A stretch of DNA of 20,000 bases from an uncultured virus (IMG/VR IMGVR_UViG_3300011885_000055) (taxonomy: Duplodnaviria > Heunggongvirae > Uroviricota > Caudoviricetes), in IMG/VR virus record IMGVR_UViG_3300011885_000055, one strand, 5' to 3'. Positions 11,690 through 20,000 of the stretch are shown here, piece after piece. The notes below the pieces were generated by a model. It was not told the origin of the DNA, ran no database searches, and worked only from the letters and a program-made list of their open reading frames with translations. The stretch's first letter is position 1; every line of letters begins with the position of its first letter. Both the position numbers and the translations under genes were made by a program.

Positions 11690-12706
11690 CTACAACCTTT
11701 CTTGCATTTTAGAAACTAATGTTTTTGTAGCAATAATATATTTATCTTTAACTTCTTCAGGCAGTTCACTTAATATTGAAAATAGGTCATTAAAATTCTT
11801 TACAAGAATATCAAAGTTAACTTTGAACTTACTAGTTATTTCTCCTAAACTAACTTTCTCTCTAAGTTTCTTTAACTCATTCTCTACTTCTTCTGGTACT
11901 TTTTCTATTGTTTCTACATCAACAGGCTTTTCTTTTAACTTTTCTTCTAGCTCCTGAATTTGTTGTAAGTAGTTATTTTCTTCATTCTGTTTTTTATTAA
12001 GTTCAGTTTGTAATCTCTCAATTTCTTCATTATCTCCACTTCCTTTAGCTTCTTTTAACTGCTTCTTTATATCTTTAATAGACTTATTAAGCTTATTAGC
12101 CTCTAACTTAGTTCCTTCTCGTTCTCTCTCCAAAATGTCCTGAAGCTTATCTATATTCTCTTTGCTAACCTTTAAAGATTCTTCCTTAACCCTTATATCC
12201 GATTCAAGGATTGCTTTCTCTTGTTCTATTTTCTGAGCTTTTTCTTTAAGATCCTTAGCTAGTTTAAGAGCTTCTTCTTTTTCCTTCTCAGCTTTTTCTT
12301 TAGCCTTAATTACCTGCTGCAATTCTCTACTAGACATATCTTCTACATTATTTTCTTTTATAAAAGCTTCTCTTTCCTCTATATCTGGTATTCCTAAAAG
12401 TGCTACTGCTTGGCTATAGCTCAAATTCGCAAACGCTTGCGAATTTGAAGCTCCAAACAAACTAATTTGATTAGACCCATACTCCTCAAAAATCCTCATT
12501 AAGTTATTGGCCGTTCTTTGAGAATAGTTAACTGATTCTTCTAACCATCTTCCCCATTGTCCATGCTGAATAATACTTTTAGCTTCTACTAGCCTTCTAC
12601 CAATTTCAATAGAATTATTTAATACCATTATTCTAGTTTGTTCTTTTATATTATTTATTTCTGCTGCTATAACTTCTATGTCTCTTATGTTTACTAATTC
12701 ATTCAT
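11690..12706 (-). CDS. DUF3102-domain protein with a long coiled-coil C-terminus
   Basis: IEIGRRLVEAK...HGQWGRWLEE...YSQRTANNLMRIFEEY matches the DUF3102 pattern, followed by Glu/Lys-rich heptads. Confidence 0.85.
   Translation of the reverse strand: MNELVNIRDIEVIAAEINNIKEQTRIMVLNNSIEIGRRLVEAKSIIQHGQWGRWLEESVNYSQRTANNLMRIFEEYGSNQISLFGASNSQAFANLSYSQAVALLGIPDIEEREAFIKENNVEDMSSRELQQVIKAKEKAEKEKEEALKLAKDLKEKAQKIEQEKAILESDIRVKEESLKVSKENIDKLQDILEREREGTKLEANKLNKSIKDIKKQLKEAKGSGDNEEIERLQTELNKKQNEENNYLQQIQELEEKLKEKPVDVETIEKVPEEVENELKKLREKVSLGEITSKFKVNFDILVKNFNDLFSILSELPEEVKDKYIIATKTLVSKMQERL
12421..12448. repeat. Perfect 12-bp inverted repeat inside the DUF3102 gene
   Basis: TCAAATTCGCAA-ACGC-TTGCGAATTTGA. 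Confidence 0.9.
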
Positions 12707-12718
12707 CTTTTACTCCCC

Positions 12719-14269
12719 CTATGCTGTTAACTTCACTTTTTTATTTTTAAGTCTTTCCATTTCAAACAACTCTATAAATTCAGCCACTTCATTTTTAGGA
12801 TTGCAGTTACGCTTCCCATGGACTTGTTTTATACTATTGTCCTTAACTTCAACTGTAAAAAATGGCTCATTAGGTTTATTCTTATATCTAATTACCAATA
12901 TGTTAGTTTCCCCACTAGCATATTTTCTTGAATAACCACCAACACAGTGATTCAATGCTTTTCCTTCATCAATTAGCTCTAGTGAACTCGTTACTGGTCT
13001 TATGAATAACTCTTTATATTCAAAACAATATAATTTGTTTAGTTCATCTAATCTCTTCTCTATTTTTTTATTAAGAGCCTTGTCCTCTTTATACTTAATT
13101 TGCCTTATGGTATTTTGATGAGCTATTACAACATCTTTAGGGAACAGAACATCTTCCTTATTTAAATCCATTTTTAATTTTTTACAGTCTTCTATATAAT
13201 CACGCCATGTGATTATTAATGAGCCATTATTACTTTTTCCCTTTTGCTTTTGTTTTGCCAAATACTTATATGCTTTTTTTGTGTTGCAGTATTCCAATAT
13301 TTCTTCTAATTTTTCATACCCATATGAATCTGATATAGCTCTCTCTATCACTTTCACTTCATGAGGTCCTAAATTACTGTTATCTCTTATTGCTCTTTGA
13401 TATAACTTTAAAAACAATGGTGATATGAATACCTTGGATTCTCTTATATCCTTTAAATCTTTCTTTCCTATTTTCAGCATCTTATATATAGTTTTTCCTC
13501 TCCAATTTATACACCTCATCATGTTTTCACCATGAATTTTACATCTTATTAATTCTTTCATACCTACTTTTGTTAATGACTCAATAAGCGGATACTTTGT
13601 GTATAATTCAAAGAAACTCAACATATCACTACCAACATATTCTTCCCACATACTATATTTAAAAGGAGTATTCTTTACAGCTTTATCAATACTGTTATAG
13701 CTAATGCTATATGGATAATTTGCTAGTGAATTAATATTAAAACTATATATACTCTTAGCTTTTTCCCACCTCTCACCATAATAGTAACTAAACAATCTAA
13801 CTGCCATTTCTGCCGAACCTGGTTTAAATACATATACAGCTTCTTTCAAAAAGCTCGTTTTTACTTTTTTATAATCACCGCCATAATATCTTTCTGCATA
13901 AAATCCATTTGCTACTATAGCATCAGGATCTACTACAGATTTTTCATAATAAATAAAGCAAGCTCTATCAATTAATGATTTTCTTCCATACCTAGTAAGC
14001 TTTACTACACATTCACTACCACACTCTTTACAATGAGTAGTACTATTATGCTTTAGCTTCTCCACTTCATATTCATGGCCACAATGTGTACAATGCCCTA
14101 AATATTTAGTTTCTCTACGTTCAACAAACAAATACCTGCTCTTTAAAAAGACTTTCTCTATAGCATATTCTTTTATTTCATCACTAACATGTTCTTCTGT
14201 ATGCATCAATATATTTTCAATGACTTTTTCTGAATATAGCTTATTATCGTGAGCTCCCATCATGCACAT
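12719..14269 (-). CDS. PcfJ-like domain protein
   Basis: N-terminal Zn ribbon (CTHC...CKEC); C-terminal WRDY...LFPKD...AH and ELIDEGKALNHCVGGY...ILVIR...PFFTVEV...QVHGKRNC, the PcfJ signature. Confidence 0.88.
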   Translation of the reverse strand: MCMMGAHDNKLYSEKVIENILMHTEEHVSDEIKEYAIEKVFLKSRYLFVERRETKYLGHCTHCGHEYEVEKLKHNSTTHCKECGSECVVKLTRYGRKSLIDRACFIYYEKSVVDPDAIVANGFYAERYYGGDYKKVKTSFLKEAVYVFKPGSAEMAVRLFSYYYGERWEKAKSIYSFNINSLANYPYSISYNSIDKAVKNTPFKYSMWEEYVGSDMLSFFELYTKYPLIESLTKVGMKELIRCKIHGENMMRCINWRGKTIYKMLKIGKKDLKDIRESKVFISPLFLKLYQRAIRDNSNLGPHEVKVIERAISDSYGYEKLEEILEYCNTKKAYKYLAKQKQKGKSNNGSLIITWRDYIEDCKKLKMDLNKEDVLFPKDVVIAHQNTIRQIKYKEDKALNKKIEKRLDELNKLYCFEYKELFIRPVTSSLELIDEGKALNHCVGGYSRKYASGETNILVIRYKNKPNEPFFTVEVKDNSIKQVHGKRNCNPKNEVAEFIELFEMERLKNKKVKLTA

Positions 14270-14281
14270 AATTTCTCCCCC

Positions 14282-14677
14282 TTACAGATTGTCCAATATA
14301 TCATCTAAATTTATATCTATGCCTTCCAGAGTTGATTTTTCTTTATAATCATTTATGCTTACAACCTTCGTTTCATTATTTTTTATATCTATTTTTTTAT
14401 TTATCCCAAAGTAATCCATAACTATTTTAAATCCTTCTGCATCCTCTATTACTGCACACCCATTTATTGCTCTTTGCTTTGCTACCTTCTTCATTTCATC
14501 TAGGCTTTTCATTATAGTCTTTCCTTCAGTAAGAATTGCTTTGGCTACCTCTTCATTTCCATTAACCTGTTGAATCAAAAACTCACCTATAACTCTTATT
14601 TCCTTCTTATCTTCTTTATCCATTTCTGAATTCAACTTTTCTATTGCCTTATTTATTAACTCTTTATTCTTTTCCAT
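14282..14677 (-). CDS. PcfK-like / AcrIIA9 (Cas9 inhibitor) family protein
   Basis: IGEFL...AKAILTEGKTI..SLDEMKKVAKQRAINGCAVIEDAEGFKIVMDYF pattern; position directly upstream of pcfJ. Confidence 0.7.
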   Translation of the reverse strand: MEKNKELINKAIEKLNSEMDKEDKKEIRVIGEFLIQQVNGNEEVAKAILTEGKTIMKSLDEMKKVAKQRAINGCAVIEDAEGFKIVMDYFGINKKIDIKNNETKVVSINDYKEKSTLEGIDINLDDILDNL

Positions 14678-14715
14678 GATTACCCTCCATAAATATAAAA
14701 TTTAAAATATATAAA

Positions 14716-14913
14716 TTATGCCTTTAACCTTATACACCCTGCTGCAAAATCTTTTAGCATATATGTCTCTACGTAGTTCTTATGTTTAACTACTATAAAG
14801 TTTTGTGTTTCATCTAATACTATTCCTGGCTTTTCAATCCACACTTTAGTCTTTCCTGTTATTCTACCTCGTTCTAGTACTGTTACCTTACTTCCTTTGG
14901 TTAAATTCTCCAT
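14716..14913 (-). CDS. Hypothetical protein (small, beta-rich)
   Basis: 65-aa ORF with an AAGGAGG SD, directly after rep. Confidence 0.75.
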   Translation of the reverse strand: MENLTKGSKVTVLERGRITGKTKVWIEKPGIVLDETQNFIVVKHKNYVETYMLKDFAAGCIRLKA

Positions 14914-14932
14914 GTTAAATCCTCCTTAATTT

Positions 14933-15742
14933 TCATTCCTTTTTCCACATTTTCAAATATACTGACCAGCCTATTAACTCCTGATAAACTGGACTAGCTT
15001 CAACTACCCTATATCCTTTGTACTGCTCTTCCCAAAATCTAAAATCATTTTCTTTTATAAGCTTCTCTATTTTTCTCTTACTGTACTTATAATCATTTTT
15101 TATAGATTCAGGTCTTATTAAATTTCTTGAAGAGCTCCATCTCTTTTTACCTTTTTTGTTATTTCTGCTTTTGGTTATATATCTACTTATTCCTTCAAGT
15201 CCATTTTCATTAGGTTGTAATCTATCGGCATTTATAAATCCTATAGTGTCCCCTTCTTTTTCGCCCTTCTTTTTACGTTTACTCCAAAGCTCCTCAACTT
15301 CATCTCTGCTTAAACCTTTATTCATTAAAATGTGGTGATGTATTCTTATTGGCTTGTCCTCGTTTTCATCTGCCATAATATATTCTGTTACTAAAATGTA
15401 TTTCAAGGGTTCTAATCCTTTTTTCTTTCTTCTATGATTTAATCTTCTAAAAAAATTACTTATCTCTTTTTCTGCTTCTTCTGGTGTTTCAGGAAGATAT
15501 TTATCTTTATAAGTACAAGTAACATGTAAATCCCCCTTACCAAAATTTCCATTTGCAAGTTGAGTAATATATCTCTTAGAGTTTTTATCATTTAAGTTTT
15601 TCTGTTTAGGTTCAGATTCTTTTACTCTTTTTGCCCTTTTCCCCTTTACCGTTTTTTCTTGCCATATTGTCCTGGGGATTATATCCACTTCTAAATATTT
15701 TTTGCCACAGTATATCTTCTTCTCTCTCATGAAGTTTCTCAC
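14933..15742 (-). CDS. HUH-superfamily rolling-circle replication initiator (Rep)
   Basis: Motif I LHVTCTY, motif II RIHHHILM (HUH) and motif III ISRYITK (catalytic Tyr) in Rep order; GTG start behind an AAAAGGGGG SD. Confidence 0.8.
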   Translation of the reverse strand: MRNFMREKKIYCGKKYLEVDIIPRTIWQEKTVKGKRAKRVKESEPKQKNLNDKNSKRYITQLANGNFGKGDLHVTCTYKDKYLPETPEEAEKEISNFFRRLNHRRKKKGLEPLKYILVTEYIMADENEDKPIRIHHHILMNKGLSRDEVEELWSKRKKKGEKEGDTIGFINADRLQPNENGLEGISRYITKSRNNKKGKKRWSSSRNLIRPESIKNDYKYSKRKIEKLIKENDFRFWEEQYKGYRVVEASPVYQELIGWSVYLKMWKKE

Positions 15743-15832
15743 GGTACCCTTCCCCCTTTTGTCTCCTTATCAATCTGTATTGGTTTAAATCTATAACTAT
15801 ATTTCTTTTATTATTTTTAAATAGTTATAATG

Positions 15833-15867
15833 TTAATACCTCATACGAGCTCTTTAAGAGGTATTAA
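15833..15867. other. Candidate double-strand origin (nick-site hairpin)
   Basis: Perfect 10-bp stem TTAATACCTC / GAGGTATTAA around a 15-nt loop that reads GAGCTCGTAT on the minus strand, about 90 bp upstream of rep. Confidence 0.45.
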
Positions 15868-15882
15868 ACTCTCTAATTTTGA

Positions 15883-15911
15883 TTGATTAGTACCGTGAGT
15901 TTTGATATACT
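15883..15911 (+). promoter_or_regulatory. Sigma-A promoter antisense to the rep leader
   Basis: TTGATT (15883-15888)-17 bp-TATACT (15906-15911), with an extended -10 TG at 15903-15904. Confidence 0.7.
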
Positions 15912-15917
15912 TAAATT

Positions 15918-15992
15918 GGTAATATAAATATACTTTCACGGTATATTTAGGAAATACTTTTCACGTCAATGGAAAGTATTTCCTTTTATTTT
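15918..15992 (+). ncRNA. Putative ~75-nt antisense (countertranscript) RNA
   Basis: Lies between the promoter and a terminator, with no ORF. Stem-loop 1 is TAAATATAC-TTTCACG-GTATATTTA (15925-15949). Stem-loop 2 is AGGAAATACTTTTCA-CGTCAA-TGGAAAGTATTTCCT (15949-15984), followed by TTTATTTT. Confidence 0.65.
15949..15992 (+). terminator. Intrinsic terminator of the antisense RNA
   Basis: 15-bp stem with one U.G pair that forms only on the plus strand, followed by a T-tract on the plus strand. Confidence 0.75.
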
Positions 15993-16279
15993 CATCTTGT
16001 ATTTTCACATTTAGATATTCCTCCACACTTAGTACACTTAGTATTGTATTTTAAAGACCATGTAGAATATCCACAACTTGTACACACCTTTATCCACAAC
16101 ATATCTTTTCTTGTTACTAACTTATAAGTTGCTTGACAAAGCTCTGCTAACTTTTTAAAATTAGTAAATTTACTAAAATTAATATTATTCAATTTGATAT
16201 CATCCGTTACTATATTTAATATTTCATTAAACTCATCTTTGGTTGTATTTGCTGATAGATAATTTAAAAGCTCTATCAT
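15992..16279 (-). CDS. Hypothetical protein with a C-terminal zinc ribbon
   Basis: CTSC...CTKC; AAGGAGGG SD. Confidence 0.75.
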   Translation of the reverse strand: MIELLNYLSANTTKDEFNEILNIVTDDIKLNNINFSKFTNFKKLAELCQATYKLVTRKDMLWIKVCTSCGYSTWSLKYNTKCTKCGGISKCENTR

Positions 16280-16303
16280 AGTTCATCCCTCCTTGAAATA
16301 AAT

Positions 16304-16669
16304 TTAATGAAAATATTCTGTAAGTTTTTCACACATTGCTTTTATGGAATCATAAACCTCTACTTTGTTATATTTAGAACTATTGATTTTAACATCAATT
16401 TTTATAGCTTCTGATGAATCAATTACCGTACTATCTTCTAGCATGGCCATTCCATCATTAATTGCTCCTACTAAAGAAATCTGAGTTGGATATATATCGC
16501 AAAGCTGCTCATGAGCTTTACTCTCTTGAACAGCTTGTTTTAATATTTCTATTGCTACATCTAATGCTTTGATATCTTCTTCCTTAGTTTCAATACTTTC
16601 ATATTCTTTGTATAAATCTTTAAGAACATGCAAATGCTCCATAGCTTCTTTTGCATAATTATTATTCAT
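16304..16669 (-). CDS. Hypothetical early protein
   Basis: 121-aa acidic ORF with an AAGGGAG SD, overlapping the upstream gene's stop. Confidence 0.75.
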   Translation of the reverse strand: MNNNYAKEAMEHLHVLKDLYKEYESIETKEEDIKALDVAIEILKQAVQESKAHEQLCDIYPTQISLVGAINDGMAMLEDSTVIDSSEAIKIDVKINSSKYNKVEVYDSIKAMCEKLTEYFH

Positions 16670-16874
16670 CCTTATTCTCCCTTTTTAAAAGTTCATATAT
16701 CTTGATGCCTTCATCCATACCAGGAGAATTTTCAACATACTTAAGCTTATATTTTTCAAAGTAAATATATCCTACTGGAACATTATTCTTATTACATATA
16801 AATGCAACATTAGGTTCCATCTTGCTCAAGCTACATCTTAATGATCCAAACTCTCCAGTTATTCTAATTTCCAT
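16662..16874 (-). CDS. Hypothetical early protein
   Basis: 70-aa ORF in the early operon with an AAGGAG SD upstream. Confidence 0.65.
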   Translation of the reverse strand: MEIRITGEFGSLRCSLSKMEPNVAFICNKNNVPVGYIYFEKYKLKYVENSPGMDEGIKIYELLKRENKDE

Positions 16875-16890
16875 TCTTACTCACAACTCC

Positions 16891-17088
16891 TTATAAATTT
16901 ATATAAACAATGTTGTCCAATGCTTCTCTAATTAAATTTCCTAAAACTGAATCGTTAAAAAATTTAATCTTATACTCTTTTTCTAAAGTGTTTTTTATAG
17001 CACATAAATCAACCTCTTTATTTATTTCTAGTACACTCTCTGTTGCCTGTTGAACTTTTACCTTTATATCTTTAGATATTGTTTTCAT
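16891..17088 (-). CDS. Hypothetical early protein (65 aa)
   Basis: Start moved to the ATG at 17088 (MKTISKDIK) behind an AGGAGGAG SD, overlapping the xis end. Confidence 0.72.
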   Translation of the reverse strand: MKTISKDIKVKVQQATESVLEINKEVDLCAIKNTLEKEYKIKFFNDSVLGNLIREALDNIVYINL

Positions 17089-17719: not shown

Positions 17720-18187
17720 ATGACTAAAACAGAAAAATTAAAAAACATTATATTAAGTAGATATGGAAGTATTAGAGAATTCTCAAAAATTGTTGGAATA
17801 CCAAGCACGACATTAACAAGTGCATTAGATAGAGATATTGGTGGCATGGCTGTAGATAGAGTTATAAAAATATGTGATGTTCTAGATCTTAATGTTAAAA
17901 CTTTCGAACCTTTGGATACACATTCAAAAGAAAGTATTCTATCCAAGGAAGAGTCCATGATACTTTTTAATTTCAATAAACTAAATGATTTAGGAAAAAA
18001 TGAAGCTAATAAAAGAGTTGCTGAGTTAACTGAAATAGCTAAATACTCATATACTCATGAAACCAAGAATAATGATGAATCCTATATTCCTACTACTTTT
18101 GCTGCTCATGATGATAATGATCCTGAAATTGCAAAGCATGATGCAGATGTAGCAAGAAAGTTTTTATCTAAAATTAAAAAGAAATAG
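17720..18187 (+). CDS. Prophage repressor (ImmR/CI-like XRE HTH)
   Basis: N-terminal HTH (SIREFSKIVGIPSTTLTSAL...VIKICDVL) and a C-terminal FAAH motif; no S24 autoprotease domain; followed by ImmA. Confidence 0.88.
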   Translation: MTKTEKLKNIILSRYGSIREFSKIVGIPSTTLTSALDRDIGGMAVDRVIKICDVLDLNVKTFEPLDTHSKESILSKEESMILFNFNKLNDLGKNEANKRVAELTEIAKYSYTHETKNNDESYIPTTFAAHDDNDPEIAKHDADVARKFLSKIKKK

Positions 18188-18210
18188 TTTTACAATTGGG
18201 GTGGGGTTAT

Positions 18211-18687
18211 ATGACACAATATGAAAAAATGGTTGCAACAGCTAATACTTACGGAATAGAAGTCTATGAACTAGAAGAATTTAGAGGTAGGAGCGGCTTT
18301 TATTCCGATAATGTAATAATGCTAAATAAAGATTTAACTGATAAAGAAAAATATTGCATTATGTTTGAAGAATTAGGACATCATTTTACTACTGTTGGAG
18401 ATATATCTGATCAAACTAAAATTGAAAATAGAAAACAAGAAGTGATTGCACGTAGGTGGAGTTATGAAAAAATTATCGGTATAGTAGATTTAATAAATGC
18501 TCATAACAATGGATGCAAAAGCAAATACGAAGTTGCTGAATATTTAAATGTTACAGAAGAGTTGTTAGAAGAAGTTTTAGGTTATTACAAATGTAAATAT
18601 CCTGATTATTTTCAAATTGATAATTACTATCTCATATTTAATAATGGGTTAGAGGTTATAGAAAAAATTCAATTTACCTATAAATAG
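18211..18687 (+). CDS. immA: ImmA/IrrE family metallopeptidase (anti-repressor)
   Basis: GFY...I.LN..L...EK.C...EELGHH...GDI...KQE..AR pattern; between repressor and integrase; ATG at 18211. Confidence 0.9.
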   Translation: MTQYEKMVATANTYGIEVYELEEFRGRSGFYSDNVIMLNKDLTDKEKYCIMFEELGHHFTTVGDISDQTKIENRKQEVIARRWSYEKIIGIVDLINAHNNGCKSKYEVAEYLNVTEELLEEVLGYYKCKYPDYFQIDNYYLIFNNGLEVIEKIQFTYK

Positions 18688-18716
18688 GGGTAACTTTATA
18701 TTTTTTTAAATTCAAT

Positions 18717-18730
18717 AGAACATATATTTG
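18717..18730 (+). promoter_or_regulatory. Possible LexA (DinR) SOS box upstream of the integrase
   Basis: AGAAC-ATAT-ATTTG versus the Firmicutes consensus GAAC-N4-GTTY (one mismatch), about 30 bp before the int start. Confidence 0.4.
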
Positions 18731-18758
18731 TATTTTATAAAAGAAAGGATGATAGTAT

Positions 18759-20000
18759 ATGTCTCAAGTAAACGTTAAAAAACGAGGGACTAAATGGCAA
18801 TATATATTTGAAGGTGCTAAAATCGATGGAAAAAGAAAAAGAATCACGAAGAGTGGATTTAGAACTAAAAAGGAAGCTTTAGAAGCAGGGGTAGCAGCTC
18901 TAGCTGAATATAATAATGCAGGAGCACATTTTGAACCATCTGAAATTTCAGTATCAGATTATATGGACTATTGGTACAAAAATTATACTTTGACCAATTG
19001 TAAATATAATACTCAACAAGGATATGGACGCATAATAAAAAATCATATTAAACCAGCAATAGGACTTTACAAATTAAAATCACTTACACCTTCTATTCTT
19101 CAAGAATTTATAAATGGTAAATATAAAAGCGGGTATTCAAAGAATTATCTTATAAATATGATTACAGTTTTAAGTGGTTCTCTAAAATATGCAGTACACC
19201 CTTGTAAATTTATTAAAGATAATCCAATGCAATATGTAAGATATCCTAAATACGAACATTCAAAGTTAGAAACCAATCATAAACTTATTTCACAAGATGA
19301 TTTTAAAAAGATCATAGATAGATTTCCTTTTGGTTCATCATTTTATATGTCATTGATTTTAGGATACTATACTGGGTGTAGAATTGGTGAGGTTATGGGG
19401 CTAACTTGGGATGATGTTGACTTCAATAATTCTAGTATATATATAAATAAAATTATGTATAAAAGAGATAAATCTATGTGTTTTGGAAGCACTAAAACTT
19501 TATCTTCCGTAAGGACAATTAAAATAAGTAAGACATTAATTAATATCTTAAAGGCCCAAAAGAAATGGCAGATAGAAAATAGGATGAAATATGGTTCTCA
19601 TTATACTCAACAATATATTAAAGAAGAGCATATTGGTAATGAGGTAATTAAAAGATTATATTCCTTCCCTTCATCTTTTGATTTTCCTTTTGAAAAAGTT
19701 AATCTAATTAATACAAAGGAAAATGGTGAAATGATAACACCTGACTCCTTTAAATATGCATCACGAGTTATTCATAATGATTTAGGACTTACATTTAACT
19801 TTCATTCACTTAGACACACTCATGCTACAACTCTTATTGAAAATGGAGCAAATATTAAAGATGTTCAAACAAGACTTGGACATTCTAAAGTTCAGACAAC
19901 ACTTGATACCTATACCCATGCTACTGAAAAAATGGCTGAAGAAACTGTTGAGATATTTGATAAGGCAATAAATGATGATTGTTGCCCAAATAAAATTTAG
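18759..20000 (+). CDS. int: Tyrosine recombinase / phage integrase
   Basis: Arm-binding N-terminus (KRKRITKSGFRTKKEA) and catalytic motifs TGCRIGE, HSLRHTHAT and RLGH...TTLDTYTH. Confidence 0.97.
   Translation: MSQVNVKKRGTKWQYIFEGAKIDGKRKRITKSGFRTKKEALEAGVAALAEYNNAGAHFEPSEISVSDYMDYWYKNYTLTNCKYNTQQGYGRIIKNHIKPAIGLYKLKSLTPSILQEFINGKYKSGYSKNYLINMITVLSGSLKYAVHPCKFIKDNPMQYVRYPKYEHSKLETNHKLISQDDFKKIIDRFPFGSSFYMSLILGYYTGCRIGEVMGLTWDDVDFNNSSIYINKIMYKRDKSMCFGSTKTLSSVRTIKISKTLINILKAQKKWQIENRMKYGSHYTQQYIKEEHIGNEVIKRLYSFPSSFDFPFEKVNLINTKENGEMITPDSFKYASRVIHNDLGLTFNFHSLRHTHATTLIENGANIKDVQTRLGHSKVQTTLDTYTHATEKMAEETVEIFDKAINDDCCPNKI

What the first reader, a model, noticed from the sequence alone, without database searches (positions are those of the whole stretch)
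15738..15992. Antisense-RNA-controlled translational attenuator in the leader of a phage HUH Rep
Seen in the sequence: (i) a plus-strand sigma-A promoter (TTGATT-17-TGaTATACT, 15883-15911) fires against the rep leader into a ~75-nt non-coding unit with two stem-loops and an intrinsic terminator (15918-15992). (ii) The rep mRNA (minus strand) has three complementary boxes: A = TACCGTGA (15943-15936), B = CTCACGGTAC (15899-15890) and C = GTACCGTGAG (15747-15738). C contains the GTG start codon of rep. B pairs perfectly with C (10 bp) or with A (8 bp), but not both. (iii) The antisense RNA covers A but not B or C. (iv) Two internal hairpins (15792-15829 and 15833-15867) would bring B close to C. 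Established: antisense RNAs that refold the rep leader control replication of Gram-positive plasmids (pT181 and pIP501 at transcription, pSK41 at translation). Inference: without antisense RNA, A:B pairing frees the start codon; with it, A is masked and B:C blocks Rep translation. This would silence a dangerous nickase in the lysogen or set replication timing. I do not know of such a switch described for a tailed Firmicutes prophage.
Basis: partly seen in the sequence, partly recalled or inferred. Interest (0 to 1): 0.9.

Follow-up and report, generated by a model that had tools for sequence, protein, structure and literature searches.

The report
Antisense RNA and origin before phage rep
The gap upstream of a prophage rolling-circle replication gene holds a small antisense RNA gene, the likely replication nick site and a fold that can hide the gene's start codon, and this plasmid-style control unit recurs in many Firmicutes prophages.

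Summary
All boxes, hairpins, the promoter-like site and the terminator sit at the stated coordinates. Comparison with about 120 relatives of the Rep gene shows they are conserved features.

1. A near-consensus promoter points away from rep in 83 of 116 loci. The sense-strand control gave 0 of 116.
2. A hairpin plus T-run terminator follows about 78 nt later in 79 of 81 loci. Its wobble pairs fit the antisense strand.
3. The A:B helix recurs with quite different sequences. Its wobble pairs fit the rep-sense strand.
4. The promoter spacer (box B) pairs best with the rep translation start in 28 of 73 loci, against about 1.7% expected.

The hairpin at 15833-15867 carries a 17-nt motif found upstream of rep in 117 of 127 loci. 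This is probably the Rep nick site, and the antisense promoter sits a fixed 31-34 nt from it.

Best reading (about 0.6): a plasmid-type countertranscript governs Rep translation through A:B versus B:C pairing, with the origin embedded in the leader.

Not shown:
- Expression of the RNA.
- The 5' end of the rep mRNA.
- A switch at equilibrium: the window's leader folds B:C with or without the antisense RNA.

Verdict: a new variant of a known kind.

The parts
14933..15742 (-). rep: 269-aa HUH-type rolling-circle replication initiator with a GTG start
   Evidence: PF23343 at E 3.7e-9 and phrog_3584 at E 1.4e-82. Homologues are annotated as replication initiation proteins in Clostridium, Latilactobacillus and Faecalibacterium phages. 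The start position agrees with homologues.
15738..15747 (-). Box C (GTACCGTGAG), covering the GTG start codon. It is the partner of box B.
   Evidence: Perfect 10-bp complement of B (I7), reached in 0 of 200 shuffles. It is the best partner of the B region among 53 control windows, at -19.9 kcal/mol. Compensatory changes are seen in L084.
15792..15829 (-). Second hairpin between the nick motif and the ribosome-binding site. It may be a Rep-binding inverted repeat (inference).
   Evidence: Inverted repeat I4. In L084 the arms are conserved while the loop differs by an 11-nt indel.
15821..15849 (-). Conserved origin core: the 17-nt motif CTCGTATGAGGTATTAA (15849-15833) plus a conserved flank. 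This is the probable Rep nick site (dso).
   Evidence: The motif lies on the rep-sense strand within 330 nt upstream of rep in 117 of 127 unique loci, with Rep identity of 36-97%. The flank is conserved in alignment A2. It resembles the phiX174 origin CAACTTG|ATATTAATAAC.
15833..15867 (-). Hairpin whose 3' arm is the nick motif
   Evidence: Inverted repeat I5, 13-nt arms, 92% complementary. The two arm changes in L084 keep T:G wobbles on the sense strand.
15883..15911 (+). Promoter of the antisense RNA: -35 TTGATT (15883-15888), 17-nt spacer holding box B, TG (15903-15904), -10 TATACT (15906-15911)
   Evidence: Found. An equivalent antisense promoter scores at least 10 of 12 in 83 of 116 loci, against 0 of 116 on the sense strand and 1 of 116 inside rep. 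Of those 83, 69 lie 31-34 nt from the motif, 62 carry TG and 78 have a 17-nt spacer.
15890..15899 (-). Box B (CTCACGGTAC on the rep-sense strand). It lies in the promoter spacer and is not part of the antisense RNA. It pairs with either A or C.
   Evidence: I7, I12. The family-wide position is 9-14 nt from the -35 box. The B arms used in A:B and in B:C overlap by at least 3 nt in 12 of 21 loci.
15918..15992 (+). Predicted antisense RNA (countertranscript) of about 75 nt. It has stem-loop 1 (15925-15949) and an intrinsic terminator (hairpin 15949-15984, T-run 15985-15992). The start point is inferred as 7 nt after the -10 box.
   Evidence: Folds at -23.5 kcal/mol, z = -7.25. A terminator lies on this strand in 79 of 81 loci, ending a median of 78 nt after the -10 box. 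All 10 terminator pairs show compensatory changes. No Rfam family matches.
15936..15943 (-). Box A (TACCGTGA on the rep-sense strand). It lies inside the stretch covered by the antisense RNA and competes with C for B.
   Evidence: I12. The A:B helix scores at least 16 in 43 of 67 unique loci, against 8 and 2 of 67 in the two controls. Wobbles on the sense strand: 20 G:U against 5 A:C.
15992..16279 (-). Upstream early ORF (95 aa, C-terminal Cys pairs). Its stop codon abuts the terminator of the antisense RNA. rep is probably co-transcribed with it.
   Evidence: phrog_7199 at E 3.7e-13. No sigma-A-like sense promoter lies between it and rep.

Best explanation
The 249-bp gap upstream of rep is a compact replication-control module of a temperate tailed phage. 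It has three parts.

1. The phage's rolling-circle origin. A conserved nick-site motif (15849-15833) sits on the rep-sense strand in the 3' arm of a hairpin.
2. A small gene for a terminated antisense RNA (countertranscript) of about 75 nt. Its strong promoter lies 34 nt from the nick motif and fires away from rep.
3. A leader switch in the rep mRNA.

Proposed working: rep is read through from the upstream early genes, so its leader carries A, B, the origin and C. As the leader is made, A pairs with B. This leaves the GTG start (C) free and Rep is translated. The antisense RNA is complementary to A and to the loop of the A:B hairpin, but not to B. When it binds, B is freed and pairs with C, burying the start codon.

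The antisense RNA carries the same sequence as B, so it might also pair with C directly. Its amount should follow genome copy number. It should also be made in the lysogen, where it would keep the nickase off and then throttle or time replication after induction.

Shown here by conservation: the RNA gene, the motif, the A:B and B:C complementarities, and their strand-specific wobble signatures.

Inferred: expression of the RNA, nicking at the motif, co-transcription of rep, the kinetic order of folding, and the direction of regulation.
For: - Elements present in the window.
- Motif in 117 of 127 unique upstream regions.
- Antisense promoter scoring at least 10 of 12 in 83 of 116 loci, against 0 of 116 (sense strand) and 1 of 116 (inside rep).
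- Terminator in 79 of 81 loci, with 71 of 79 ending 60-92 nt after the -10 box and 67 different hairpin sequences.
- RNAalifold finds the terminator with compensatory changes in 10 of 10 pairs. There are 33 C:A cells against 8 G:U cells on the sense strand, so the hairpin is selected on the antisense RNA. Neutral scoring gives 67 G:U against 18 A:C on the antisense strand.
- A:B helix in 43 of 67 loci against 8 and 2 of 67 in controls. Wobble bias is 20:5 towards the sense strand.
- The B region pairs best with the translation start in 28 of 73 unique loci (about 1.7% expected), through 21 different helices that cover the start codon or the Shine-Dalgarno site.
- Compensatory B:C changes in the 97%-Rep relative.
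- The nascent window leader folds A:B; the masked leader folds B:C.
- The logic matches pSK41 RNAI and the pT181 pre-emptor as described in PMC5703833, section 17.
Against: - No expression data. No RNA run is listed for this sequence, so the RNA is predicted only.
- At equilibrium the window's leader already has B:C. The MFE is -60.7 against -56.7 kcal/mol with A:B forced. Masking the antisense target does not change start-site accessibility: 0.399 against 0.398.
- Across the 28 B:C loci, masking lowered accessibility in 14, raised it in 5 and left it unchanged in 9.
- B:C is not top-ranked in 45 of 73 unique loci, including the large Oscillospiraceae-type group. A:B is conserved there too, so A:B must have a role that does not need C.
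- By cluster, only 24 of 38 upstream-sequence clusters show a promoter scoring at least 9.5, and only 12 of 38 show B:C.
- The promoter keeps a fixed distance to the nick motif, not to the start codon. This may mean it serves the origin.
- The 5' end of the rep mRNA is unknown.
- Loci were de-duplicated only by exact sequence, so the counts are not independent events.
Confidence: 0.6

Rival explanations
1. The antisense promoter and its transcript serve the origin, not Rep synthesis. Transcription away from the nick site could supply negative supercoiling that exposes the nick motif. Alternatively, the RNA could prime complementary-strand synthesis on the displaced sense strand, acting like a single-strand origin. 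On this view the A, B and C complementarities shape origin DNA.
For: - The -35 box lies 31-34 nt from the motif in 69 of 83 loci, while the motif-to-start distance ranges from 39 to 322 nt.
- The distance from the terminator to the motif is nearly constant at about 129-157 nt.
- The RNA has the polarity and position needed to anneal near the 3' end of a displaced sense strand (my own reasoning).
- In rolling-circle plasmids the sso works in one orientation only, on single-stranded DNA, and is primed by RNA polymerase (PMC5703833, passages).
Against: - A conserved intrinsic terminator, with wobble pairs selected on the RNA strand, marks a discrete released RNA.
- The promoter is a canonical double-strand promoter, not one formed by folded single-stranded DNA.
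- B's partner tracks the start codon or Shine-Dalgarno site at whatever distance it lies. Nothing about origin function requires that.
Confidence: 0.15
2. The antisense RNA represses rep directly. Its box A' (the same sequence as B) pairs in trans with the start-codon region C, as a seed-pairing small RNA would. The intramolecular B:C helix would then be incidental.
For: The antisense RNA carries TCACGGTA in the loop and 3' side of stem-loop 1. This is complementary to C.
Against: - This does not explain why B, which is not transcribed into the antisense RNA, is kept complementary to both A and C.
- In L139 the B:C helix uses a part of the B region that shares only 4 nt with the arm used in A:B (sequences), so there C is not simply a copy of A.
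- The predicted RNA:start-region duplex (-20.3 kcal/mol) relies partly on tail pairing of doubtful meaning.
Confidence: 0.12
3. Boxes A, B and C are three copies of a protein-binding site, either Rep iterons (the 'bind' locus) or an operator. Rep or a repressor would bind them on double-stranded DNA to regulate the origin, the antisense promoter and rep.
For: - There are three copies of the core TACCGTG, one of them inverted.
- The boxes vary between lineages while the nick motif is conserved, as with the bind and nic loci of rolling-circle plasmids (PMC5703833, passages).
- B lies in a promoter spacer and C lies over the start codon.
Against: - Mismatches are biased to G:U on the sense strand (20 against 5 for A:B). 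Protein sites on double-stranded DNA would not be expected to show such a bias.
- In several lineages the A:B and B:C helices use different, only partly overlapping registers of B.
- The partner of B always falls on the ribosome-binding site or start codon.
Confidence: 0.08
4. Chance complementarity in AT-rich intergenic DNA.
For: The promoter-like count in the window equals that of shuffles.
Against: None of 200 shuffles reached the 10-bp match. All elements are conserved family-wide, with controls.
Confidence: 0.01

Closest known systems
pSK41 RNAI control of rep (staphylococcal RepA_N plasmids)
   Same: In pSK41 an antisense RNA of about 83 nt is counter-transcribed against the rep leader, well upstream of the translation start. 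Its binding is proposed to induce a stem-loop that hides the ribosome-binding site, without stopping transcription (PMC5703833, section 17). The size, placement and proposed output are the same here.
   Different: - pSK41 is a theta-replicating plasmid with an unrelated initiator, and its origin lies inside rep.
- Here the element is a tailed prophage with an HUH Rep. The origin nick motif lies inside the leader, between the competing boxes, and the hidden element is the GTG start.
- There is no sequence or Rfam relationship.
pT181 RNAI / pIP501 RNAIII transcription attenuation
   Same: A countertranscript binds the rep leader, and a 'pre-emptor' pairing is replaced by an inhibitory stem-loop just before rep (PMC5703833, section 17). 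A:B against B:C follows the same three-box logic.
   Different: The inhibitory helix in those plasmids is a terminator. In the window, C is followed by GAGAAACTTCATG with no U-run, so the output would be translational.
pC194/pUB110 (Rep_1) and pMV158 (Rep_2) rolling-circle plasmids
   Same: These have an HUH Rep, a dso upstream of rep, and antisense RNAs against the rep translation start (PMC5703833).
   Different: - Their antisense RNAs overlap the start site itself. Here the RNA lies about 180-250 nt upstream.
- No CopG-like repressor is evident.
- The Rep family differs (PF23343).
- A small Bacillus plasmid with a distant Rep (30% identity) lacks the motif upstream of its rep.
Phage lambda tO-oop-pO (OOP RNA)
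   Same: OOP is a 77-nt self-terminating antisense RNA. It is transcribed against the early rightward transcript, lies immediately upstream of the replication genes, and its 3' end overlaps the end of the upstream gene. oop together with ori-lambda affects replication (PMC3349717, passages).
   Different: OOP targets the cII mRNA, not the replication gene's start site. Lambda's origin lies inside O and uses iterons and theta initiation. No three-box switch is known there.
phiX174 gene A origin
   Same: The record marks the start of viral-strand synthesis at the A after CAACTTG, followed by ATATTAATAAC. The family motif here is CTTGTA...GGTATTAA on the strand that also encodes Rep. Microvirus Reps are distant hits of this Rep (about 30% identity).
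   Different: Six extra bases separate CTTG from the TATTAA part. The cleavage position here is unknown. The genome is a tailed double-stranded DNA prophage.

Membership tests
Plasmid-type countertranscript (ctRNA) control of rep | A small RNA gene with its own promoter and terminator, antisense to the rep leader | tested here: met
   Present in the window. Conserved in 83 of 116 loci (promoter) and 79 of 81 (terminator), and the wobble signature lies on the antisense strand. Expression was not tested.
Plasmid-type countertranscript (ctRNA) control of rep | The rep mRNA leader spans the region complementary to the ctRNA | not testable with these tools
   There is no conserved sense promoter from 250 nt upstream of the terminator to the rep start: 8 scattered hits across 79 loci. 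Co-transcription with upstream genes is inferred.
Plasmid-type countertranscript (ctRNA) control of rep | Mutually exclusive leader pairings, one of which hides the translation start | tested here: met
   In the window, A:B is 8 bp and B:C is 10 bp on the same B. Family-wide, B:C is top-ranked in 28 of 73 loci and the B arms overlap in 12 of 21. Not met in 45 of 73 loci.
Plasmid-type countertranscript (ctRNA) control of rep | ctRNA binding shifts the leader to the inhibitory fold | tested here: inconclusive
   The nascent leader folds A:B and the masked leader folds B:C. But the full-length free leader also folds B:C at equilibrium, and accessibility is unchanged in the window.
pT181/pIP501-type attenuator | The induced stem-loop is an intrinsic terminator (U-run after the stem) | tested here: not met
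   No U-run follows box C on the sense strand, and no minus-strand terminator was found.
HUH rolling-circle Rep (PF23343 / phrog_3584) | Profile match above the curated cut-off, plus a histidine cluster and a catalytic Tyr | tested here: met
   PF23343 scores 37.2 bits against a 27.8 cut-off. phrog_3584 matches at E 1.4e-82. HHHILMN and RYITK are visible in the translation; assigning these as motifs rests on recall. No solved relative was found by sequence.
Double-strand origin (dso) of a rolling-circle replicon | A conserved nick sequence near rep, on the strand to be displaced, often in a hairpin | tested here: met
   The 17-nt motif occurs in 117 of 127 loci, always on the rep-sense strand. 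In the window it lies in a hairpin arm. Cleavage itself cannot be tested here.
RNA-polymerase-dependent single-strand origin (sso) | Lies close to the dso (position recalled), is orientation-specific, and has a promoter formed by folded single-stranded DNA that makes a short primer | tested here: inconclusive
   Position and polarity fit. But the promoter is a canonical duplex promoter and the product is a terminated RNA of about 75 nt.
Any Rfam family | Covariance-model match | tested here: not met
   There is no meaningful match in window 14500-17000 at E up to 10. In 18 related loci at E up to 1, the single hit is a plant microRNA model far below its threshold.

The most novel reading that the evidence does not exclude
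The antisense promoter may be an integral part of the origin. It is fixed 31-34 nt from the nick motif and fires away from it. On this reading it licenses nicking in cis, through negative supercoiling or opening of the nick hairpin, or by priming the displaced strand. Its released RNA would at the same time shut off Rep translation in trans. A single promoter would thus act as both accelerator and brake of rolling-circle replication, forming a self-contained replication governor shared by many Firmicutes prophages and phage-plasmids.
Probability: 0.15. Interest if true: 0.8.

Novelty: new variant of a known kind. Interest (0 to 1): 0.65.

Why it matters
Control of replication by a countertranscript is a hallmark of plasmids. 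Five full-text searches found no description of it for the HUH-Rep module of tailed temperate phages, and Rfam has no matching family.

If the reading holds, three things follow:
- It defines a new small-RNA family together with the nick site of the PF23343/phrog_3584 Rep family. Origins could then be predicted in many prophages of Clostridia, Lactobacillales and Paenibacillus, and in 37-40 kb Clostridium perfringens episomes.
- It explains how a chromosome-nicking enzyme could be kept silent in a lysogen.
- It gives a concrete, mutable switch for testing how phage replication is timed.

The strand-specific wobble signatures are a useful internal control. The terminator fits the antisense strand and the A:B helix fits the sense strand, which argues against reading the boxes as protein sites.

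Tried and rejected
- **RNA-seq evidence.** No RNA holder is listed for window 15500-16300, so no reads were laid. This says nothing about expression.
- **Own genome.** The window's assembly is not held.
- **DNA similarity.** Searching the leader against phages in distant mode gave no match. The leader is too diverged, so loci were found through the protein instead.
- **Rfam.** Nothing useful.
- **PDB by sequence.** No hit for Rep.
- **Small plasmids with distant Reps.** The Bacillus cereus 4.8-kb plasmid has no motif upstream of its rep. The only match has one mismatch and lies on the other strand, and 25 of 200 shuffles did as well. The Priestia plasmid was fetched but not examined. Rejected as members of this origin family.
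- **A sense promoter for rep inside or just upstream of the module.** None is conserved.
- **Equilibrium accessibility as a test of the switch.** Weak and mixed.
- **RNAalifold on the MAFFT alignment.** It recovered only the terminator, because the A columns are not aligned by MAFFT. A:B was therefore scored with an alignment-free helix search plus controls.
- **A possible attenuator in the Oscillospiraceae-type group.** The B region may pair with the origin-proximal hairpin. I saw this by eye but the stems are short and I did not pursue it.
- **Literature.** Seven searches were run. Five of them looked for a phage countertranscript and found none. Subscription journals are mostly absent from the library.
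Full report
**Setting**

The window is a prophage of a low-GC Firmicute.
- An integrase (18759-20000), an ImmA/IrrE-like peptidase and an XRE-type regulator lie on the + strand.
- A leftward early operon on the minus strand runs into a 269-aa ORF (14933-15742).
- This ORF matches Pfam PF23343 REP_ORF2-G2P (E 3.7e-9) and phrog_3584 'replication initiation protein' (E 1.4e-82).
- Its relatives are annotated as replication proteins in Clostridium phage Saumur (55.6% identity), Latilactobacillus phages (about 50%) and phiSM101 (43%). More distant relatives occur in microviruses.
- The closest locus is in a Clostridium sulfidigenes genome record (L084, Rep 97% identical).
- The window's own assembly is not held.

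**Checking the observation**

- B:C is a perfect 10-bp pair (15890-15899 with 15738-15747).
- A:B is 8 bp (15936-15943).
- The hairpins are at 15833-15867 and around 15792-15829.
- The + strand has a TTGATT-17-TG-n-TATACT site (15883-15911).
- The only terminator-like site of the region is the + strand hairpin 15949-15984 followed by a T-run.
- The 78-nt + strand unit folds into two stem-loops at -23.5 kcal/mol, z = -7.25.
- The MFE of the 272-nt sense leader contains B:C, z = -5.3.
- A 10-bp complement of the start region was reached in 0 of 200 shuffles.
- The promoter-like match by itself is no more than chance within the window: 11 sites against 11.7 expected.

**Relatives and which rows were kept**

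I fetched 80 viral and 77 genomic loci that encode relatives of Rep, plus three phage records.
- Of 161 sequences (160 loci plus the window), 148 had a usable start with at least 330 nt upstream.
- Of these, 127 were unique and free of N.
- Single-linkage clustering of the upstream regions gives 38 clusters, one of them with 59 members.
- De-duplication was by exact sequence only, so the counts below are not independent events. Cluster counts are given further down.

A 17-nt motif, CTTGTA(A/T)(T/G)(G/A)GGTATTA(A/T), lies on the rep-sense strand within 330 nt upstream of rep in 117 of 127 unique loci. Rep identity in these loci ranges from 36% to 97%.
- The window's copy is CTCGTATGAGGTATTAA at 15849-15833. 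It forms the 3' arm of the hairpin 15833-15867.
- About 12 further bases are also conserved.
- The motif is far better conserved than Rep itself. It resembles the phiX174 origin, where the record marks viral-strand synthesis starting after CAACTTG and followed by ATATTAATAAC.
- I read it as the Rep nick site (dso). Cleavage is not shown.
- Its distance to the rep start varies from 39 to 322 nt, with a median of 144.5.

**The antisense RNA gene is conserved**

The tests below used the 116 loci with the motif and enough upstream sequence.
- Promoter. On the antisense strand, within 110 nt upstream of the motif, a promoter scores at least 10 of 12 in 83 of 116 loci. The sense strand of the same region gives 0 of 116, and the antisense strand inside rep gives 1 of 116.
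- Of those 83, 69 have the -35 box 31-34 nt from the motif, 78 have a 17-nt spacer and 62 have the extended -10 TG.
- Terminator. Downstream on that strand, a hairpin plus T-run is found in 79 of 81 unique loci. It ends a median of 78 nt after the -10 box, 71 of 79 end within 60-92 nt, and there are 67 different hairpin sequences. The sense-strand control gave 32 of 81 hits at scattered places, some of them the same hairpins read backwards.
- Covariation. On a MAFFT alignment of 36 of 46 candidate modules, RNAalifold recovers this hairpin, and all 10 pairs show compensatory changes.
- Strand. On the sense strand of that alignment there are 33 C:A cells against 8 G:U cells, so the stem is selected on the antisense RNA. 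A neutral helix search gives 67 G:U against 18 A:C on the antisense strand. The hairpins in that search were first picked by folding that strand, so it is biased. The RNAalifold count is not.
- No Rfam family matches, in the window or in 18 loci.

**The leader pairings**

A:B recurs with wholly different sequences. Examples are TACCGTGA, TTCCGCCG, TTCATCGCTTTAAT, TGTGATATGA, AACTTTGTTGTC, GCCTTATAGCA and AATGCCGTAT.
- B always lies in the promoter spacer, and A lies about 20-30 nt into the antisense RNA. The loop is 22-45 nt in most strong helices.
- The helix scores at least 16 in 43 of 67 unique loci. Controls gave 8 of 67 (B reversed) and 2 of 67 (a window further upstream).
- In 31 strong unique helices there are 20 G:U against 5 A:C on the sense strand (binomial p = 0.004, not fully independent). 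This is the opposite bias to the terminator.

B:C also recurs.
- The spacer region pairs better with the translation start (-20 to +12) than with any other 32-nt window, from the motif to 220 nt into rep, in 28 of 73 unique loci. About 1.7% is expected.
- These loci use 21 different helices that cover the start codon or the Shine-Dalgarno site.
- The B arms used in A:B and in B:C overlap by at least 3 nt in 12 of 21 loci. They do not overlap in 8, of which 7 belong to one Clostridioides difficile-type group.
- Between the window and L084 the leader is 88% identical overall. The 30 nt before C are strongly diverged, yet B:C is kept at 10 bp through paired changes.

**Counts by cluster (38 clusters)**

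| Feature | Clusters |
|---|---|
| Motif | 33 |
| Promoter scoring at least 9.5 | 24 |
| Terminator | 22 |
| A:B scoring at least 16 | 9 |
| B:C top-ranked | 12 |

The most distant Reps (about 44% identity or less) often keep the motif without a recognisable promoter.

**Does it switch?**

For the window:
- The transcript up to B, or up to just before C, folds A:B.
- The full leader folds B:C at -60.7 kcal/mol. Forcing A:B costs 4.0 kcal/mol.
- With the stretch covered by the antisense RNA masked, B:C forms.

At equilibrium, then, the antisense RNA is not needed for B:C. Start-site accessibility is 0.399 free and 0.398 masked. Across the 28 B:C loci, masking lowered accessibility in 14, raised it in 5 and left 9 unchanged. 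In the other 39 loci the figures were 13 lowered and 9 raised.

No conserved sigma-A-like sense promoter lies between 250 nt upstream of the terminator and the rep start: 8 scattered hits across 79 loci. rep is thus probably read through from the early operon. That puts A and B in its leader, but the 5' end is not known.

**Rival readings**

- Origin function. The fixed spacing between promoter and nick motif, and the nearly constant distance from terminator to motif (about 129-157 nt), suggest the promoter may also, or instead, serve the origin. It could do this by transcriptional activation or by priming the displaced strand. The conserved terminator, and the way B's partner tracks the start site, argue that regulation of Rep is at least part of the function.
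- Direct pairing. The antisense RNA could pair with C directly, because it carries the same sequence as B.
- Protein sites. Binding sites for a protein fit poorly with the strand-specific wobble biases and with the shifted registers.

**Comparison with known systems**

- The logic is that of Gram-positive plasmid countertranscripts. The closest is pSK41 RNAI: about 83 nt, acting about 100 nt upstream of the translation start and inducing a fold that hides the ribosome-binding site. The pT181 pre-emptor scheme is also close (PMC5703833, passages and section 17 read).
- It is not a pT181-type attenuator, because no U-run follows C.
- In phages the nearest analogue by position is lambda tO-oop-pO, which encodes a 77-nt antisense RNA just upstream of the replication genes (PMC3349717, passages). 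OOP targets cII.
- Five searches found no description of a countertranscript on a tailed-phage HUH rep module. Two further searches were background on phiSM101 and phage HUH Reps. For papers other than the three named in this report I saw only search listings or abstracts. PMC5714925 was read in passages.
- Rep homologues also sit on 37-40 kb circular Clostridium perfringens records filed as plasmids. Copy-number control would matter directly for those.

**Verdict**

This is a new variant of a known kind of control. It is widespread and testable.

Noticed in passing
window 11690-14677 (minus strand): Downstream of rep lie a PcfK-like protein (weak, E 0.0011), a 516-aa PcfJ-like protein with an N-terminal zinc ribbon (E 6.4e-38) and a DUF3102 protein (E 9e-51). 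These families are named after conjugative-plasmid genes, yet here they sit in a phage replication region.
   Followed up: no
window 15992-16279 (minus strand): The 95-aa ORF just upstream has two C-terminal Cys pairs. Its N-terminus matches phrog_7199, which is labelled 'RNA polymerase' (E 3.7e-13). Its stop codon abuts the antisense RNA's terminator.
   Followed up: no
L003 (phiSM101) about 1308-1330 and 1417-1440: phiSM101 carries a second partial copy of the origin motif (ACTAGATATTAAC) about 110 nt upstream of the full motif. The simple scans found no clear terminator and only a weak promoter there.
   Followed up: no
L013, L018, L021, L025 and relatives (Oscillospiraceae/Lachnospiraceae-type group): In this large group B does not pair with the rep start. 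However, part of the B region (AAAAACGGCG in L025) is complementary to the 5' arm plus T-run (CGCCGTTTTT) of a small GC-rich hairpin between the -35 box and the motif. This could be a different output of the same switch. I saw it by eye.
   Followed up: no
plasmid records H30-H35; L164: Rep homologues (about 43% identity) lie on 37-40 kb circular Clostridium perfringens records and on a 34-kb Paraclostridium sordellii record, all filed as plasmids. L164 (H30) shows the same gene order around rep as phiSM101, so these are likely episomal phages.
   Followed up: partly
loci L010, L088, L015-L017, L001, L047, L105, L106, L068, L069, L125, L129, L078, L133, L141: In these 16 of 81 loci the antisense RNA's terminator hairpin also has a T-run on the sense side, making it a two-way terminator. 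That would stop read-through into rep unless it is overcome.
   Followed up: no
L146-L151, L121, L132, L152, L073, L124: These loci (11 of 127 by this list; one search counts 10 of 127) lack the 17-nt motif by the regular expression used. They are mostly the most distant Reps at about 35% identity, some from records labelled as non-Firmicutes MAGs. They may use a different nick sequence.
   Followed up: no
window 17720-20000: The lysogeny module is complete at the window's right end: an XRE-type regulator, an ImmA/IrrE-like metallopeptidase and a tyrosine integrase. They face away from the early operon that leads into rep.
   Followed up: no
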